A DNA stretch of 38,513 bases from Catajapyx aquilonaris (taxonomy: Eukaryota), in contig JYFJ02003774.1 in the NCBI GenBank assembly GCA_000934665.2, positions 1 through 38,513 of the forward strand, given 5' to 3'. The notes beneath the pieces were generated by a model that ran no database searches, was not told the origin of the DNA, and saw only the letters and a list, made by a program, of their open reading frames with translations. The translations under genes and the position numbers were made by a program. Position 1 is the stretch's first letter. Each line of letters starts with the position of its first letter. Positions 3,701-37,441 of the stretch are shown one piece after another.

Positions 3701-4185
3701 GACATTTATATGTATGCAGTCAGGATTTGAATATACATATATATACTGTATTGTAGTGGAGCCTGAGCCCACATGTGTGGCGCAAGTTCACAAATTTAAT
3801 AGGCTATCGGTTTCACTACAGCCTCGAATTACAGAGTGAGTCAACCCTAACTCACCACATGTATGCCTGATGGTGTTTTTTTTTTTAAGCGTCGCGTCGG
3901 TTACTGAGCATGCTGTCTTTTTGTGTGTGCCGTGTCCTGGACATGTGCGTGGGGCAACATATAGGGTCTCAATCATGTAGCTTGGTTTTGGAAAGAACGG
4001 CAACAATGGTAGCGTGTATTTTGGTCTTCTAAGTTTCCATCCCTGTCTGAAGGGTATGCACATTTGTAGCGGGGACAGTTATGTTTGGTGGTGTGCCAGT
4101 CAGGTGGGTTAATTGGGATAATAGATAGGCGGGGGCGCATGATGGATGTAGGGCCCTGTTAGGTAGAAGGCATCTTAGCCCAACA

Positions 4186-4493
4186 GCCACTGTAGTTTAG
4201 TGGCAGAACACATGCTCGATAGTGAGTGTGGACCTGGGTTCGATTCCCAGCAGTGGCACATGGGTTTGAGATACGTGCAGTCTTATTTTATGTTCTTGGG
4301 GATCTTGTTGCAGGTTCCGCTTACTCCAGGGACGCACTTAGCCATGGCAGTGTTTTAAAAGGGGCTTCCTTGCCAGCTACTTCGCTAATTAACACCATGT
4401 TTCATGGAAATGCGAGTCGCAGGCTCAGGCGTCTTCAAGTCGGCCTGGAGGTTTAGCTAGTGGATTAAGGAGATAAAACTAGATTACTTACTT
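4186..4493 (+). mobile_element. tRNA-derived SINE (tRNA-like head 4186-4258, short TTAC tail)
   Basis: Perfect acceptor stem GCCACTG/CAGTGGC, A box TAGTTTAGTGG, T arm CTGGG-TTCGATT-CCCAG. Irregular anticodon arm, no T-run terminator; body ends in attacttactt. No TSD found. Confidence 0.6.
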
Positions 4494-5325: not shown

Positions 5326-5679
<354 letters not shown>

Positions 5680-19143: not shown

Positions 19144-19197
19144 CAATTTGGCCCTATTTTAGACGTCGAGATTATTTTCAACGAGCGCGGCTCTAAG
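19144..19197 (+). CDS. Rbfox1: RBFOX RRM exon, 54 nt, phase 0-0
   Basis: Strong acceptor (ttcctttctctcttctttcag) and donor gtaagt at 19198. Encodes QFGPILDVEIIFNERGSK, matching the 54-nt exon of RBFOX genes. Confidence 0.97.
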
Positions 19198-21979: not shown

Positions 21980-22173
<194 letters not shown>

Positions 22174-28247: not shown

Positions 28248-28299
28248 TACTTGAGACTCCTGCGATATTGTTGGCCATCATGTGTTAGGCAGGAATGAA

Positions 28300-28371
28300 A
28301 GTCCCATGGTGTAATGGTGAGCACTCTGGACCAAGAATCCAGCAGTCCGAGTTCAAATCTCGGTGGGACCT
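28300..28371 (+). tRNA. tRNA-Gln-derived sequence with altered anticodon loop (AAG); probable pseudogene
   Basis: aGTCCCATGGTGTAATGGTGAGCACTCTGGAccaagaaTCCAGCAGTCCGAGTTCAAATCTCGGTGGGACCT closely matches metazoan tRNA-Gln. Differences: loop CCAAGAA instead of CT(C/T)TGAA, A1:C72 mismatch, no adjacent T-run terminator. Confidence 0.8.
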
Positions 28372-29146
28372 TCGCACTCGTGGCAACCTACCATACCTAG
28401 AAGTTCTTCTTCCAAAACAACACTGGCCGTCTCTTTGGGTTGGCTGTGAGTGGTGCGGTTGAACGCGGAGGCATGGCTAAAAGAACCTACTTGTTATGGC
28501 ATTGGTTCCCCCAAGCACCAGTGTTTTGCTTTTGGAGAGCACCGGACAGAGCTGTGCCGCCGCGTTCTCTTGCGACGTTGTATCTTTTAGTTTAGAATCC
28601 GTTGCTTGCTGCTGCGACTGCTGCTTCTGAGGCACATGGTCTCAGGAGACAGCTGACTAACCATCTTGTTTCTTTTGCCATGTTGGGTGCAGACTCGCGG
28701 CAGCAAGACTTGTGGTTATTTATGCTTTTCATCCAGCTTTACAGTTCACTTAGGCCTACTCCTGCATGCCTCACTGGCAGTTGGTAAATACTGTACTGCA
28801 GTGTTCTCTAGTGTTTGTTCCTGTCCCTTTTACGTTTGCGGGACGTGGGTCAAGCAACAAGAGATGTTTGATCCTAGACACAGAAGGGACCGAATTCTCT
28901 CGTTGCTCACCCACACTCCTTTCCTTTCTTTCCTGGTAGTTACCGTACTCTTTTTGTCCAAGTAACGTAACATCCAGGAGTGCCAAGTAATTTCAAAGTG
29001 TGAGTGCAAAGTAACTTTTGTGACAAAAAGTGCCTAGTTTTCTTGCAAATAAAGTAATATTAAAAAAGAAGTGGCACAGTAACTTTTGCATATGGAAATA
29101 CTCAATATCACCATGACCATGTTTAATGTTCCATTCCAATTCATAG

Positions 29147-29201
29147 GTAAACAATGCTACAGCCAGAGTTCAAACCAAGAAGCCACCAACTGTACCGAAT
29201 G
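29147..29201 (+). CDS. Rbfox1: RBFOX exon ending the RRM, 55 nt, phase 0-1
   Basis: Acceptor ccattccaattcatag ends at 29146; donor gtaagt at 29202. Encodes VNNATARVQTKKPPTVPN+G; VNNATARV follows GRKIE in Fox proteins, and VQTKK is the arthropod-type continuation as I recall it. Confidence 0.95.
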
Positions 29202-31668
29202 GTAAGTGACCAAAAGAGACCAAGGGGAAAGAAGAGAAAAAGTACCCTTCATGTGCCTCCTGGCCGTGTGTACTGGGTTCTTTCCACCACACGGAACAAA
29301 AAAAAAGAGCATGCACACACAACCACGTCCTCCAACTCCAAATCTTGTGGGTTGAATGGGACAGCAGTAATTTTGCAACAGTTTCTTTACAGTCTACACC
29401 AATGTGACTTTTGTGCAGGATGACTCTTGCTAATATTATTTTGATTGTAGATTAATTTTTCTCCACGTGTGATGTGAATTTACAGTTTAAATGCCTCCAA
29501 TGTTTCAAGAGACAACAATGACCCCCTTTTGAGAATCCTAAGAAAATATGGAAAGGTTGCTTGACTTGTGATTTTGTCTCAGGGCCTCGAATGGCTCATT
29601 TAGGTATATACCTCTAAAATACTGGCAGGAAAATTGTCATGTATTCCATGCCTTCCAGGGCAATGCCTTGTGGGGAAAACTTTTCACCCACGGCTTTTTA
29701 TTATTACATGTTTCAGAGTTGACAGAAGGTTACCAGAATGTTTAGAAATTTAATTCAGATGTGATGTAAAACACTAACCATGCAACAGAAGAAGCCTACA
29801 AGTGTGTTGAAAACCGCAAGTCAAAATTAGCGACTATTTTAATCGAGTAGTTTTATTAATTTTAATTGACAAATTTATTCATATCTATTATGATAATATA
29901 TTATGATAATATATGAGCTTCATAATGATTGCATTAATATGTATGAATAATTTTATGAATAGGTATAAATACTGTTTGGCTGATGATTCTGGCTCCCGGC
30001 GGAAGAGGATTGCCCTCACTGGAAACCTCACCTGAACCACTGTCAGATTGCACCACCTACTCCTGCCATCCCCAGAAGTACTGTACTTCATTGCCACATT
30101 TATGTCCCTATATGAATGTGCTTCCTTTCCCTCAAGTCTGAATTATAGTTGTCCAAGACTGAACTTCATTTACATTTAATTACATAACAGATTCTTTAAT
30201 TTGGGCCCAGAATCATTGGTCCTACAGAACCTGAAACTCATTTCATTAAGTGACTGAATTGATTTATCCATGTAAGCGGTATCATATTATAGTGGGAATA
30301 GGTGTGATAATAAGTAAGATTCAGACAGTTGAGGACAGGGTGGGAGATATATATTTTATTAAATGAAGAAAACAAAGAATAATCCTGGTTATGGCCTTGA
30401 TATACATAGACTACATGATTCGAATATGAAGGTTGCATAACTGAACATGTTGGGAACCACACTCTTCACTTAATAAAAAGGAGGGTTAGGTTGCACTGAT
30501 AGAAATCTCAACTTTGAATCCCAAACATATGGCCTCTGTCTATTTTGTGTGAAAATGTGATTACTGCATGCATGGTTAAGTTTGTGAGATTTTCACATTG
30601 TGAAGTTCTGGCAGGTCAAGGATATGCTATGAAATAGGAGCAGTTGTGTTGAATTCTTCTATGTAAAATTAACACTGATTTTTCAGCCTGAAGATCCAAA
30701 GATCTGATCTAGATTTTTACAGCCTGAATCCAATATTGGCAATTATACTGTATTTTTCTCCCCTTTTCCTTCCCAAACACTGCAATACTGGAAGCCAGCT
30801 TGCAAAATTACTGCTGGAAAGGGATTTTGAAATATATGCAAAAATATTTTAGCTGGGGGATGATGTTGTGTGTACTCCTTTAGCTCCCAAGTGTGTCCAA
30901 CCCAGCTTGTAGCCTAGTGAGTGACCTGTAAACCCGGGGCTCTGTACCCATCACACTACCTGCCCACAACCAGCATGGTGTAGCCAATAGTGGTTTAGCT
31001 GGAGAGCTTTGCTGGGATCAAGTTGGTAGAGTCCTGGAGCTTTTTGTATTGCCTGATTTCTTCGTTTTACGGCTCAAAATCCCAATTTGAACTGTGGGGT
31101 GCACACATTGTTATTTTTTTGTTCAGTACGTATTTTGGTATTAGTGCCTCTCTAGACTTGCCCTGCGAAGCACTCTGCAATTTTTTGGCTTCCATGTTTT
31201 TGAATGCAGTAGCCTACTGGAACTAATCTAAAATATTAGACTTAGGTCAACGGTTATCGTTTCATATTCCATTATAATGTTTTACTTTTTTGTAATTTTA
31301 GTTTTTCTAACTAGGAATGGAACGGTGCCTACATTGGGTGAGAGACTATTATCTTGGTGTGATTTGATGGTTGTGGGTTTTTTTTATATAGCTGTGCTCT
31401 TGTTTTCTCCTAGTTCGTGTCTATGCTCAGCAACCAGACTTTTCAACTCTTTGAAACCCTGTTCCTTCTGTACCTCATGACAGGTAGATTGGTTGTTACT
31501 TTTGACTCACCCACTTCCTTCATTGATGAATGCCCAGTATGCTTTTGAATGCTGGTGTCTCCAAACGTTTGATAACAACCGCCCAAGGCAACGTTCGAGT
31601 CAAAAGATTTGGTGATGTGTATTTTTTAGTTGGCCCATGCTGGGAGAGTCAGCCAGACAGCCAGCCTT

Positions 31669-31876
31669 CCTGCCTGCCAGCCTGCATGCTTGCCTGTCTG
31701 CCTACCTACCTGCCTACCTACCTGCCTACCTGCCTGCCTACCTACCTACCTACCTCCCTACCTACCTGCCTACCTACCTACCTACCTCCCTACCTACATA
31801 CCTACCTACCTATCTACCTATCTACCTATCTACCTATCTACCTGCCTACCTGCCTACCTGCCTACCTACCACCTAC
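31669..31876. repeat. Compound (CCTA/CCTG/TCTA)n tetranucleotide tract, ~200 bp
   Basis: Direct reading; explains the LPTY/PAY repeat ORFs. Confidence 0.95.
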
Positions 31877-32771
31877 CGGCCTCGACTTTCCAAACCGGCC
31901 TGTCAACAAGTCTTGCTATGAGGAAGGCTAAGGGGGAGATGTATTACTGGGCCAGGCTTCAACAAGGCTGAGGAAAAGATAATCCCTCAACTGCTTTAAT
32001 CCAATTGAATAACAGGATAGTGCACAAAAAGAAAGAAGGGAGGGGAGGAGATAAGGGCCTAGATTTGCTATGCTAAGTCCAGTGTTAGGATCTACATCAC
32101 TTTTCTAGCTCTATATCAATGAGACTTGCTGACATGGTTCAATCCAAGGTTGGTTGCACTGTCGCATTGCATGACGTGTGAAACCATAGTCTAGCTGAAA
32201 GAGCACAGCCTTCTTTTCCAGTGTCTCTTAGCCTCCTAATGCACTTGTCTACGTGTGACTGTCTCGTACTAGAGCTAATGAATGACAGAAACGTGCACCT
32301 TAATGCTTTGTAGCACAGTAGCCTTCCAGTTTTCTTCCAGTCCGACTACAACTGCAAGTCCAGCACAAGCTATAATCCACTTTATTTTCAGAGCAAGCCA
32401 AAGGTTTTTGTTTCTTGTTTCTAGCAAGTAGTTTTGTAAGATTGTGCTGAGGTCTTCCTCTGTTGACCTGACTTCTTGTGAGGTCATGACAGATACTTAC
32501 GTTGCTCCTGCTTTGCTTTTTGCAAACTGTCAACCTTAACAAGAGGCTGTGCACAAGGTTTATGTGATGTCAAGTTGTGCCCATCCACCACCCTTTGGTA
32601 TCCCTTATGTTGCACAGCCTGTAACGTTTGTTTTGTTGAAAGTTGTGGAAAGTAAGCATTGCTACCTTAGTTACCCTGTCGAGGTGAGAGGAATGGACGG
32701 TGCCAGAGAGCCATGCCGTCTGCTGCACAATGTTCAAAGTGTGAGGCTGGGCTAATGTTATGTCATGTCAG

Positions 32772-32874
32772 GGTGCCGTTTACCGCAAGTGCCATGGTCC
32801 TGGGTTGGGGGATCCGCCTGTTTAACCTCTCCCACTAACCCCCTGGTGCTGACATCGCGACCTCTTCGGCGTAG
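32772..32874 (+). CDS. Rbfox1: RBFOX alternative exon A (probably mutually exclusive with 34001-34145), 103 nt, phase 1-2
   Basis: Weak acceptor gctaatgttatgtcatgtcag ends at 32771; donor gtaggt at 32875. Open in the frame set by the 29201 donor: (G)CRLPQVPWSWVGGSACLTSPTNPLVLTSRPLRR. Resembles, from memory, the G(Y/C)RLP..W...L.L.PR..RRS isoform segment of insect Rbfox1. Confidence 0.75.
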
Positions 32875-32922
32875 GTAGGTGACCCCAGCCTGGGCTCTCT
32901 CCTTTCTTCTCTCTCCGGCGCG

Positions 32923-34135
32923 GCATGGGCTTGTCAGTTGTGTGCCCGTCACCCTACTACCTAAGCACGACCCGTCACTTGTTGTTCCACCAGTCATTAT
33001 TCTTAATTTTTAATTTATTAATTCAATTACTTGATCATTCATTTTTCATTCCTAAGTTCATTCATATATTAATTTCTGTTTGTGTTAATTTCCATACAAG
33101 ACAAAAACAGTGTGTTTGCTCGTGCATGGTGTGCCACCTTCACTTAGTCCTAACCAATTTGGTTTACCCTTCACCATTGTTTTCCCAAAGAGAGAGAGAG
33201 AAGCGGTCAGATGTCCACATTCAGGTGGACTTCAAAATTTATTGGCTCAACAGTAGACCCTTATAATTATATGGCACCGGTCAAAACTTAGCAAAGCCTT
33301 GTCAAGGTAAACAGAGGCGGGCTGTATTTTCAGTTGCGTCGAGAGAGGAAACGGCAGTTTCCAACCCAGTCAACCCATGGCGTGTTGCAGCGGGTAGGAA
33401 CACGCAAAGGCAGGTGCATTCGGAGACGCTCTTGATACATAACCAATGGTGAAGTGCAGCCAGCCTGTTCACTTGATTGGCTTGGTTGTTTTGGTGTGGA
33501 GTATTGTCAGGACTGCATCATGGAAGGAGTTTGGCAGAGGCTTGAGTAGTAGGAGCCACCTTCTTGTTGGTGTTGGACTTGTTAACATTTAGTAGGATGT
33601 GTTCTCTTGCACGATACACTGACTACCCGTACAGTGTACATAACATGCATGCCCTGGACCAAGAGAGAGGCTCCTGAGCTTTGGCCTGCTGTCTAACCCC
33701 TTCCAGGCCCCAGCCTAGCAAACCACAGGTTTCAGGGGCATCCTTGTAGTCCAGCCTGACACCATCCCTTCCCCCATCACCCACAATTGCTCCCTCTTTT
33801 GGTTGTTCCTGTGTGGTTATTTATTTACTTATTTATTTACTTACATAATGATTTATTTATTTATTTATTTACTTAATACTTAATTATTTGTCTGGACTGG
33901 AGTTGGACTTTTGGAAGCGGCGACTGTGCCTTGCAAGCCGGCCCGGACTGGATTGTACTGAATGTTTTCCTCCTTGCATGTGCCTGGTTTGGCCTTACAG
34001 CGGCGGCTCTCCGCGGTGTGGCGATACAGCGAGGGCGAGCAAGGGCCTATCCCACAGCCGCTGCTGCTGCTGCGGCAGCCGCCTTCGCTCGCCACCCCAC
34101 ACCACTAACTGCTGCTGCTGCCACAGCTCTGCATG
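32923..34135 (+). promoter_or_regulatory. RBFOX motifs around the alternative exon pair
   Basis: GCATG at 32923-32927; TGCATG at 33123-33128, 33646-33651, 33975-33980 (in the acceptor pyrimidine tract of exon B) and 34130-34135 (inside exon B). Confidence 0.6.
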
Positions 34136-34145
34136 GCTATACACC
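34001..34145 (+). CDS. Rbfox1: RBFOX alternative exon B, 145 nt, phase 1-2
   Basis: Acceptor ggtttggccttacag ends at 34000; donor gtaagt at 34146. Encodes [61 protein letters not shown] is typical of arthropod Rbfox1 and resembles vertebrate AAAYRGAHLRGRGR. Confidence 0.92.
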
Positions 34146-34847
34146 GTAAGTCTCTTCCTCACCCAGCACTACCTATGCTCCTCGTGTAACAACCAACCAA
34201 CCAAACAAACAAACAAAACAAAACAAAAAATTTCGATTTGTTTAGCCCACTACTTTTACCCCAAGGCACTGTTTTGTTATGTTCCTGAGGCAGGACTCCC
34301 ACAAGTGAGGGGTCTTAAATGTTCAAAGGTGCTTTCTATATGGTAAGGCAGTTTTGGCAGAATCACTGAAGTGGCCAACCTAACAGTGCAGCCATGGGTT
34401 CAAATTGATCTTGGATTCAAAAAATTAGTTCGAAGAGACTTGAAGCTTCCACTGGTGCGTGCCTCGACGTTACCCAGCCTAGCAATCCAAAACTCAAGCA
34501 TTGATGTATATATCTCGGTGCATTGTATATGTGAAATACTTGTGCTGAGTGCTGCTAGAAGAATGTTTTGTTATTTTGGACATGGGACTACCAGGAGAAT
34601 TTTTGATGGGACTATGAACACTGAGGGTGGGGATTGAATGTCCGGCATACTGACTACTGACAAACCACTTCAAGGGCATCGTGGGCTGTAAATTCAGAAG
34701 CAGGATGCTAATGTCATTATTTTGTTCACAACAAAACTACCACTTCATGTTTTCCATACATCCCACATAAAGACTAGCAAACATAAGGATCCACAGGTGT
34801 ATGAGTAAAGTAGGGTGAAGCAGGACATGCCTGTTTCCAAAGCAGCT

Positions 34848-36479
34848 GGGTCATTCCATGCCAAGACAGACAAGTTGGTGGCTCGACCATTTCAGAATTT
34901 GATATCTAAAATCATGTGCGTACACACACACGAGTTGTTGCTAAAAACAAAATTAGAGCCTCTCAGTTGAAAATCCCGCGGAGATATGGCAATGTCTTTC
35001 GGCAACAATGGAACCGGAAGAACAATTTATTTCAAGTGGAGTTATTGTTGTGACCCCTTGATGATATATATCAAATGAACGGGCGTGAGATGGGGAACCT
35101 TTTGGTGGCAACGGTTTTAACCTAGATCGTAAAATAAAATGCTAAAAAATTTGCATTTATGTGCAAAAAGGGCATATGTCAGGTGGTCCAATGTCATTGT
35201 TAAACACATGCCGAGAGTGTGAAATTAATATGGTAGGTACCTAGTCAGCTGGCCATTCTTACTGTAGAAGGACAACACCACAGATCAAGCAGTCTCGGAA
35301 ATAATAAATCCTGAAATGTCCATTGTCCCCTAATTTGGCCACCATTGTGGATCATTCTTCTCAATGTGGGGCTGGGTATATTTTAAGGTTACTTATGCTA
35401 AAAGAAGCATCTTTTCATTCTTGACCTAGCGATGTAAGAATGATTGGCCTACCCTGAGCGGATCACCCCCAACACGCCAAATAACGCGGAGTGGGGCTGG
35501 AGGGGATCTTCTGTGCATTTAAAAATGCACCGTGGGTGATCCGCTCAGGGAAGGTCAACCATTCTTACATCGCTCGGTCAAGAATGAAGAGACGCTTCTT
35601 TTAGCATAAGTAACCTTAAAATAGACCCAGCCCTACATTGGGAAAAATGACCCCAAAGATGACCATTAGGGTAAATTTGACGTTTCAGGATTTATTGTTT
35701 CCAACCCTGCTTGAATTGTTGAGTCTTTCAACAGCAGCAATTACCATATGGCCATGTTCCCCAAGGCAGGAATGTCAGGTGCATAGAAAATCTACAGAAA
35801 TTCCCATATACTCCGCATTATTTGGCACTGTATTGAAAAATTTTCTACGGGTGAGCTGCTTACGGAAGGTGATTTACTCTTATACCACTTTGTTAAACAT
35901 GAACAGGCGCTTCGACGTATGTAACTTTAAAAGCGACCCAGTCCCTCATTGAGAAAAATGACCCCAAAGGTGGCCAAATTAGGGGACAATGGACATTTCA
36001 GGATTTATTATTTCTGAGACTGCTTGATCTGTGGTATTGTCCTTCTACAGTAGCCTAATAATGGCCAGCTGACTAGGTACCTACCATATTAATTTCACAC
36101 TCTCAGCATGTGTTTAACAATGACATTGGACCACCTGAAACGTGCCATTTTTGCACATAAATGCGAATTTTTTTGCAATTTTATTTTATGCTCTAGGTTA
36201 AAACCTTTGCCACCAAAAGGTTCCTCATCTCACGCCCGTTCATTTGATATATAACATCAAGGGATCACAATAAGAACTCCACTTGAAATAAATTGTTCTT
36301 CCGGCTCCATTGTTGCCGAAAGACGTTGCCATATCTCCGTGGGATTTTCACCTGGGAGGCTCTAATTTTGTATTTAGCAACAACTCGTGTGTGTGTGTGT
36401 GTGTACAAGCATGATTTTTGAATATCAAATTCTGAGATGGTCGAGCCACCAACTTGTCTGTCTTGGCATGGAATGACCC
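34848..36479. mobile_element. Non-autonomous long-TIR foldback DNA transposon (Sola2-like)
   Basis: AGCT|GGGTCATTCCATGCCAAGACAGAC ... GTCTGTCTTGGCATGGAATGACCC|AGCT. Arms ~34848-35392 and ~35921-36479 are highly complementary. GRG..CYC ends, a 4-bp TSD and >500-bp TIRs fit Sola2; no transposase. Confidence 0.8.
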
Positions 36480-37441
36480 AGCTGGTAAAATACAAAAATG
36501 GGCTGAGCCAGAAGTCTTTCACTGAATCTGGTCAACTTTGAATGTCCTTGTCCAGCAGGTAAAACAGCCTGGACAATAAGCATATTTAGTGCATGAAAGA
36601 CGTTATAAAATGGTTTTCACTCAAACATAAGTCAAAAAACAAAAAAATGCAAATAAATGCAGGCCAGTGATACACATTACCTCTACCTAATGTATATCAA
36701 AGTCATAATCCAGATACTAGTTCTTAATAAAAATGATATGGTCACTGTAAATGCCAAATGGCTACTGGAAACCAAGTGGCAACTTTGGGAAAGCCATCAT
36801 CTGAGATAGCTGGGACATCATGAGTGATTGGCTAACTCTGTTTTTGTATTTACCAGGTACTTTGGGAGCAAACGGGCAGGCTAAATTAGTTAATATTTGG
36901 GCGTCAGGTTCCAGTGTTTTATGGTAGTAGTATGTTCTTTTGTTTTGGCTGCCTCTGTTGAACTGTAAAAATTTTAATGTACTGTACATGCGAAATATGT
37001 TTGATCTATTGGACATATTAACCCACAAACACTTGTACACTTACAAGTTAGCCCATTGTTGCAACAATTGAACATGGGTCCATATTCCTAGAAAGTGACT
37101 TAAATGTAGATCCACCAGATACATCACAGTATTTTGTCTACAATTCCTATTTCATTGGGTCCAAAAAGTGAGAGTTGCTTGATGCTAGGTGGCACAGGTT
37201 ACACGTGATATTCCTCAAAATCTGTAGGCAATATGTCATCCTTTGCAGGGAATAGGATGACAACTTTTTACCAATTACATTTAAGTTTTCTTCGCATCAT
37301 GGCAGAGGAATGCACCTGTCGCTCATTATACACTTGCCATGGTATATGATCTCTCTCATGCATGCTAATGCAGGTTGAGAAATTTGAACAATGAATGGTT
37401 TGTTTGATTGTTGGAGAACGCCCTCATTTTAAATATTAGTA

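What the first reader, a model, noticed from the sequence alone, without database searches (positions are those of the whole stretch)
32772..34145. Probable mutually exclusive exon pair wired as a second RBFOX-controlled switch
Seen: both exons are phase 1-2 (103 and 145 nt), so including both or neither shifts the frame. (T)GCATG lies downstream of weak exon A (32923, 33123, 33646), in the acceptor tract of exon B (33975) and inside exon B next to its donor (34130). Established: RBFOX enhances exons from downstream and represses from upstream or exonic positions. Inference: high RBFOX shifts its own mRNA from the Arg/Gly/Ala-rich B segment to the Trp/Pro-rich A segment, a second feedback layer acting on the C-terminal domain.
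Basis: partly seen in the sequence, partly recalled or inferred. Interest (0 to 1): 0.7.

Follow-up and report, generated by a model that had tools for sequence, protein, structure and literature searches.

The report
Three-way alternative exon in insect Rbfox1
An insect-type gene for the splicing regulator Rbfox1 has three swappable exons in one slot rather than the two first proposed; the overlooked middle exon is the one seen spliced as the alternative, and self-regulation of the choice is plausible but untested.

Summary
The window is an arthropod (hexapod-like) Rbfox1 gene. Exons A (32772-32874, 103 nt) and B (34001-34145, 145 nt), their phase 1-2 boundaries and all five (T)GCATG sites are as described. 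A matches an annotated insect isoform segment; of 293 homologous sequences 166 carry B alone, 107 A alone, 19 A plus frameshifted B, 1 both with filler. But RNA contigs show a third phase 1-2 exon, C (33334-33409, 76 nt, GC donor), between them. C joins the next exon in 3 of 3 runs, at contig depth similar to B. A appears only in unspliced contigs. No joint links cluster members. Each single exon keeps the frame; the five other combinations translated stop early. TGCATG is enriched here (4 vs 0.63 in shuffles); two sites sit where RBFOX represses B, but the upstream sites could favour C as well as A. So this is a three-member mutually exclusive cluster; RBFOX control is unshown, and the proposed B-to-A direction is doubtful. 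No relative of C was found. The scan noted a similar Rbfox exon pair in another genome (e1-7497069).

The parts
29147..29201 (+). Upstream common exon (55 nt, ends in phase 1)
   Evidence: Translation matches homologs; its letters form the loose ends before C and B in RNA contigs
31302..31337 (+). Optional 36-nt microexon (VFLTRNGTVPTL), frame-neutral
   Evidence: Identical peptide in cockroach and locust isoforms; joined to B in run X2
32772..32874 (+). Exon A, 103 nt, phase 1-2, CRLPQVPWSWVGGSACLTSPTNPLVLTSRPLRR; near-consensus branch point CTAAT at -20, weak pyrimidine tract
   Evidence: 21/42 identical to a stick-insect segment, E 1e-8; 107 A-only homologs; no listed difference inside it in two relatives' contigs, but no junction seen
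32923..32927 (+). GCATG, +49 from A's donor (would favour A)
33123..33128 (+). TGCATG, +249 from A, -211 from C (ambiguous: for A or against C)
   Evidence: a conserved intronic piece in run X1 begins at this motif
33334..33409 (+).
   Evidence: Joined to the downstream exon in X1, X2, X3 and to the 55-nt exon in X2, X3; open frame to the normal C-terminus; 2 of 3 listed differences in X2 are synonymous
33646..33651 (+). TGCATG, +237 from C, -355 from B (would favour C and/or repress B); secondary motif GCACG at 33609
   Evidence: not covered by any contig, conservation unknown
33975..33980 (+). TGCATG in B's acceptor tract (-26), repressive position
   Evidence: kept in X2, whose piece 33918-34029 has no substituted letter
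34001..34145 (+). Exon B, 145 nt, phase 1-2, Arg/Gly/Ala-rich; found across arthropods
   Evidence: Junctions on one or both sides in 3 of 3 runs; 166 B-only homologs; the form fixed in the processed retrocopy G000:C482
34130..34135 (+). Exonic TGCATG in B (Leu-His-Gly codons), -15 from the donor
   Evidence: Kept in X1, X2, X3 and at the same place in 2 of 2 distant metagenome loci L009, L010; not kept in the retrocopy, in Leu-Gln-Gly stick insects, or in the hymenopteran sequences examined

Best explanation
This is a cluster of three mutually exclusive exons (A, C, B) filling one slot between the RRM and the Tyr/Ala-rich C-terminal domain of Rbfox1. SHOWN: each exon alone gives a full protein with the normal PY end; none, any two or all three give an early stop; C and B are both spliced in as alternatives. 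INFERRED: exclusivity is kept by the reading frame plus decay of mis-spliced RNA, with weak splice sites on A and C letting regulators set the ratio; A is a rare or tissue-restricted third option. INFERRED, about even odds: RBFOX binds the sites in B's acceptor and next to B's donor and represses B, moving the choice to an upstream exon, in these samples more likely C than A. That would swap an Arg/Gly/Ala-rich segment for a short polar one without touching RNA binding or the nuclear signal. Odds by step: three-exon architecture 0.9; A used in some tissue 0.75; RBFOX represses B 0.5.
For: Junction contigs for C and B and none between members. Translation of all 8 combinations: 3 full-length, 5 truncated. 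Homolog tally 166 B-only, 107 A-only of 293, both forms in the same species for cockroach, locusts, a stick insect and two crickets. Motif enrichment matched in this window only by the RRM exon, whose equivalent is autoregulated in mammals (PMC2777236 passages). Sites 33975 and 34130 kept in relatives, 34130 also in two distant loci. Position rule and FGFR2/egl-15 precedents.
Against: No RBFOX perturbation or binding data. Not all GCAUG sites are bound (PMC11874969 passages). Site 34130 is partly forced by Leu-His-Gly coding and is lost in some insect lineages that keep the exons. Site 33123 lies upstream of C and could repress it. The evidence is three contig sets of unknown tissue; contig depth is a poor measure of isoform level. 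The enrichment test region was chosen after the fact.
Confidence: 0.6

Rival explanations
1. One reading: RBFOX shifts its own mRNA from B to A (with C a separate, RBFOX-repressed or independent option), A appearing in RBFOX-high tissue such as neurons or muscle that bulk samples dilute.
For: GCATG at +49 and TGCATG at +249 of A; 33123 is also upstream of C. A is old and unchanged in relatives.
Against: No A junction in 3 of 3 runs while C has junctions in all; the closest site to A is only the pentamer; 33646 follows C.
Confidence: 0.2
2. The three-exon cluster is real but its choice is set by other tissue regulators (CELF/Bruno, PTB-type, muscleblind); the RBFOX motifs are incidental or minor.
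For: A CU-rich run follows A's donor (32893-32915) and a UG-rich run flanks 33123. Bruno1 and Rbfox1 cross-regulate in fly muscle and Rbfox1 exon use differs by fibre type (PMC8742874). Exonic motif lost in some lineages.
Against: Motif density is above shuffles and equals that at the RRM exon; two sites lie inside B's splice signals and are kept in relatives.
Confidence: 0.3
3. A is being replaced: C arose in this lineage (perhaps as a tandem copy of A) and took over, leaving A as a conserved but nearly silent relic.
For: A has drifted from the insect consensus (50% identity) and is not seen spliced; no relative of C found; faint A-C DNA likeness (score 38 vs 27 +/- 4, 1.2% of shuffles).
Against: A keeps an open frame, a strong donor and a branch point, with no listed change or indel in two relatives; the A-C likeness is one of six comparisons, A-B scored alike (1.0%), and the peptides do not align significantly (7%).
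Confidence: 0.15
4. Exclusivity is enforced by competing RNA pairings (docking site and selectors) as in Dscam-type clusters.
For: Such pairings are common in insect clusters (recalled); conserved intronic blocks flank the exons.
Against: Best duplex in 31900-34500 was -30.2 kcal/mol, inside the range of best values in 20 simulated sequences (-23.4 to -33.6); the region round A folds worse than all 100 shuffles.
Confidence: 0.1

Closest known systems
RefSeq Rbfox1 isoform sets of Periplaneta americana, Schistocerca spp., Bacillus rossius, Anabrus simplex, Gryllus longicercus (GenBank) and Hymenoptera
   Same: Same slot, same A-type and B-type segments used one at a time, same upstream 36-nt microexon in several.
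   Different: None of the 309 homologous proteins examined holds a C-like segment (they were retrieved by likeness to A or B); the 21-nt microexon those insects carry before A/B was not found here; wasps and bees have annotated A-plus-shifted-B forms with a long open tail, whereas here that combination stops 12 nt into the next exon.
Mammalian RBFOX1/2 mutually exclusive exons B40/M43 and frame-shifting exon A53 (PMC2777236, passages)
   Same: Tissue-chosen mutually exclusive exons that alter the C-terminal region and, for B40/M43, splicing potency.
   Different: B40/M43 is a pair; by recall it lies one exon further downstream than the slot here (not tested). A53 removes the PY end; A, C and B all keep it.
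RBFOX autoregulation by skipping of the 93-nt RRM exon (PMC2777236, PMC11874969, passages)
   Same: Clustered UGCAUG in the gene's own splice signals; that exon is in this window at 22033-22125 with sites at 22007, 22024, 22129.
   Different: That switch removes RNA binding; this one would swap a C-terminal segment, and is not shown experimentally.
RBFOX-regulated mutually exclusive exons of FGFR2 (IIIb/IIIc) and C. elegans egl-15 (5A/5B) (PMC2777236, passages)
   Same: FGFR2 has the same geometry: sites upstream of and inside the downstream exon repress it and modestly activate the upstream one.
   Different: Those are other genes' pairs with demonstrated regulation; here the target is RBFOX's own transcript and there are three options.

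Membership tests
RBFOX (Fox-1) family gene | Fox-type RRM and C-terminal PY nuclear signal | tested here: met
   RRM exons translate to the Fox RRM; exon B hits are named RNA binding protein fox-1 homologs with PF00076; downstream exons on G000:C5906 end in the PY signal
Mutually exclusive exon cluster | Members share flanking phases so that one, and only one, keeps the frame | tested here: met
   103, 76, 145 nt, all 1 mod 3; 3 of 8 combinations full-length
Mutually exclusive exon cluster | Each member is seen spliced between the same flanking exons | tested here: inconclusive
   Met for C and B; A not seen spliced in 3 runs but annotated so in 107 homologous sequences
Mutually exclusive exon cluster | Members are not routinely co-included | tested here: inconclusive
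   No joints in 3 runs, but contigs drop rare forms; 19 of 293 homologous sequences are A plus shifted B
Mutually exclusive exon cluster of duplicated exons (Dscam type) | Members are homologous copies | tested here: not met
   Peptides of A, C, B do not align above shuffles; DNA likeness marginal
Mutually exclusive exon cluster of duplicated exons (Dscam type) | Docking-site/selector RNA pairing | tested here: inconclusive
   No duplex above simulated background; covariation could not be tested for lack of relatives' introns
RBFOX-regulated exon | (U)GCAUG enriched near the exons, in positions fitting the rule | tested here: met
   4 vs 0.63 expected; two sites in B's splice signals
RBFOX-regulated exon | Motifs conserved in relatives | tested here: inconclusive
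   33975 kept in 1 relative, 34130 in 2 relatives and 2 distant loci but lost in some insects; 32923 and 33123 lie in aligned pieces with unlocated differences; 33646 not covered
RBFOX-regulated exon | Direct binding and response to RBFOX level | not testable with these tools
   Needs CLIP, knock-down or minigenes

The most novel reading that the evidence does not exclude
On top of an old insect A/B switch this lineage has recruited a new third exon with a GC donor, unrelated to any protein found, that has become the main alternative to B, and RBFOX itself drives the choice in a dose-graded way (B at low level, C and then A at higher level), so the protein tunes its own C-terminal assembly domain separately from the RRM-skipping feedback.
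Probability: 0.2. Interest if true: 0.65.

Novelty: new variant of a known kind. Interest (0 to 1): 0.4.

Why it matters
RBFOX autoregulation is known for the RRM exon; the C-terminal domain is what lets it oligomerise and activate splicing in mammals (PMC11874969, passages). A self-controlled swap at the start of that domain would be a second feedback acting on potency rather than on RNA binding, testable in any insect that has the A/B pair. Exon C is also a clean case of a mutually exclusive cluster growing by a non-homologous, GC-donor exon that GT-AG scans miss (my own scan missed it too). The A/B pair itself is already in public annotations, which limits surprise.

Tried and rejected
Search for relatives of exon C: none among 11 word-sharing candidates; 1 hit in 1.84 billion representatives, P0311, a 685-aa protein with 7 matched stretches at 38% identity, set aside as a repeat match without further study; single copy in G000. 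The 25-residue exon is short, so these blanks are weak. RNA pairing: nothing above background; the best local stem at A's donor (32799-32810 with 32883-32894) overlaps insertions seen in relatives. Steric exclusion: introns are 459 and 591 nt and A's and B's acceptor signals lie close to their exons; a distant branch point for C was not excluded. Alternative A donor at 32871 (99 nt, would allow A+B in frame): weak score 2.2 vs 8.9 and homologs end like the 103-nt form. A 16-of-17 match between the 36-nt microexon and 32690-32706: not above shuffles (14%). DNA of other insects: metagenome scan gave 2 loci, AT-rich and chelicerate-like by sequence, neither showing exon A or C (L010 read to base 1500 by eye, whole by script for motifs); prokaryote and viral scans gave one weak, irrelevant match each. 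Mapping A/B to Drosophila exon numbers failed: the figure is not held and supplements gave no usable match (two files of PMC8742874 were not searched). Lack of contig cover at 33646 and lack of A junctions are not taken as absence. Depth figures (C 20.7/138.4/16.5; B 19/116.7/8.5; unspliced A 6.2/39.3/5.8) are contig means and are not used to rank expression beyond 'C is not marginal'.

Full report
Gene. The window is one whole contig (G000:C1997) of a 286-Mb eukaryotic assembly. On the + strand it carries Rbfox1 exons: RRM exons near 5398-5607, 19144-19197 and 22033-22125, a 55-nt exon at 29147-29201 ending in phase 1, and the region in question. The remaining exons lie on G000:C5906. The best hits to exon B are fox-1 homologs of mayflies, locusts, cockroaches and crickets. 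The 36-nt microexon at 31302-31337 encodes the same peptide as in cockroach and locust, while the 21-nt microexon those insects carry was not found between 29202 and 34000. I infer a hexapod, possibly wingless; this was not established.

Observation. Coordinates, lengths, phases and the five motifs are correct. TGCATG occurs 4 times in 32875-34145 against 0.63 in 2000 dinucleotide shuffles (0.35% reach 4); GCATG 5 against 1.77 (2.7%). Of 745 sliding windows of that size, 11 hold four TGCATG, all at this cluster or at the 93-nt RRM exon. The region was picked after seeing the motifs, so these figures are optimistic.

Exon A is a real, old exon. It aligns with a stick-insect Rbfox1 segment at 21/42 identity, E 1e-8, and that segment retrieves 66 proteins from Polyneoptera and Hymenoptera. 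Of 309 homologous proteins gathered, 16 lacked the upstream anchor and were dropped; of 293, 166 have B alone, 107 A alone, 1 has both with filler (an unnamed Timema prediction) and 19 have A followed by a different-looking tail. For 5 of those 19 that I tested, the tail is compatible with exon B and the next exon read in a shifted frame; they come from Vespula, Polistes, Bombus and Tetragonisca. So A and B are alternatives across insects, but double inclusion is annotated in wasps and bees. These are counts of sequences, many per species, retrieved by likeness to A or B; they cannot reveal forms with neither.

The missed exon. Three public contig sets were laid on 31900-34800: X2 is on record as RNA; X1 and X3 are not, but all three hold exon-exon junctions. 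X3 matches at 99% or more; X1 and X2 differ in introns and look like relatives. All three have a contig aligned to 33333-33409 that continues into the same downstream exon as B does; in X2 and X3 it is preceded by the 55-nt exon. This defines exon C, 33334-33409, 76 nt, phase 1-2, with an open frame and a GC donor. The junction letters match the parent gene's exons, not the retrocopy. B is joined to the 55-nt exon (X3), to the 36-nt microexon (X2), to the next exon (X1, X3) or to a 15-nt microexon on C5906 (X2). Contig depths for C are similar to or above those for B. Exon A is covered in all three runs, with no listed substitution or indel inside it, but only by contigs that run through both splice sites into intron, at depths like other intronic pieces. 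No joint between A, C and B was listed; five loose ends were not displayed. Contigs drop rare forms, so A may be rare or tissue-restricted rather than unused. In X2 two of three listed changes in C and both in B are synonymous. No relative of C was found, which is weak evidence for so short a peptide.

Frame logic. Translating all eight combinations with the downstream exons, A, C or B alone give full proteins ending in the PY signal; none, any pair, or all three stop inside C or within 23 nt of the next exon, three introns before the end. Decay of such RNAs is inferred, not shown. A processed retrocopy on G000:C482 with an intact frame joins the 55-nt exon directly to B, independent evidence that B alone is a germ-line-expressed form. 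No RNA pairing exceeded background, and the three peptides are not detectably homologous.

Regulation. The position rule (repression from upstream or exonic sites, activation from downstream) is set out in PMC2777236 (passages) and PMC11874969 (passages), the latter noting that many GCAUG are not bound. Sites 33975 and 34130 lie in B's acceptor tract and beside its donor, the geometry described for FGFR2 exon IIIc. 33975 is kept in X2; 34130 in X1, X2, X3 and in both distant loci L009 and L010, but it depends on Leu-His-Gly coding (155 of 178 B-type sequences) and is absent where that changes. With C in place, 32923 favours A, 33646 favours C, and 33123 could favour A or oppose C. The firm prediction is therefore 'RBFOX lowers B'; which exon gains is open, and C is the one seen in use. 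I put direct RBFOX repression of B at about 0.5.

Literature. Five searches on this question (listings and abstract starts only) showed no paper on this slot or its autoregulation; the library lacks most subscription papers. PMC8742874 (section 6, passages, part of the supplements) reports fibre-type-preferential use of fly Rbfox1 exons 7, 12, 14/15 and 17/18, which I could not map to A/B; its figure may bear on this. PMC5778076 (passages) reports that fly Rbfox1 low-complexity domains are differentially included by splicing. That the fly gene has both A and B segments, and that mammalian B40/M43 lies further downstream, is recalled and untested. An earlier scan note on another genome (e1-7497069) reached a like view of an Rbfox exon pair; it is a lead, not support.

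Verdict. New variant of a known kind, interest 0.4.

Noticed in passing
L002 (G000:C482, about 32270-33320, minus strand): Intronless Rbfox1 retrocopy with an intact frame of about 320 codons, the B-only form, and 3' UTR resembling the parent's; possibly a functional retrogene. It has lost the exonic TGCATG.
   Followed up: partly
P0138, P0151, P0153, P0159, P0174, P0297-P0310: Wasp and bee annotations with A plus frameshifted B give long Arg/Ser/Cys-rich tails without the PY signal, possibly a route to cytoplasmic isoforms; the same combination stops early in this species.
   Followed up: partly
window 21980-22134: 93-nt RRM exon with TGCATG at 22007, 22024 and 22129, in its acceptor and donor; the known autoregulated exon.
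   Followed up: partly
L008 1151-1165: 15-nt frame-neutral microexon between the cluster and the next common exon, spliced after B in run X2.
   Followed up: partly
L008 4159-4164: TGCATG about 40 nt before the acceptor of the 200-nt exon (4201-4400), with two more at 3772 and 3806; homologs vary in this region.
   Followed up: no
window 31414-31483 and 31315-31337: A 70-nt candidate exon with good splice sites and an in-frame stop (possible poison exon), and a second acceptor inside the 36-nt microexon giving 23 nt; together they would keep the frame. Outside the stretch on which runs were laid.
   Followed up: no
window 29202-32771: The 21-nt microexon present before A/B in the winged insects retrieved was not found here.
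   Followed up: partly
window 34843-36484: Large inverted repeat (arms of several hundred bases, 91-96% complementary), probably a foldback or MITE-type element, 700 nt after exon B.
   Followed up: no
window 31632-31894: CCTA/CCTG simple repeat of about 260 nt.
   Followed up: no
window 28299-28373 and 4186-4259: Intronic tRNA-like sequences: one called tRNA-Leu(AAG), Rfam 55 bits, whose body looks to me like another tRNA type (recalled); one with an unreadable anticodon. Possibly pseudogenes or SINE heads.
   Followed up: partly
window 32585-32991: All three runs have unspliced contigs over exon A that end near the AT-rich stretch at about 32990-33035, while most neighbouring intron is uncovered in X3; may be a retained or stalled intermediate.
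   Followed up: no
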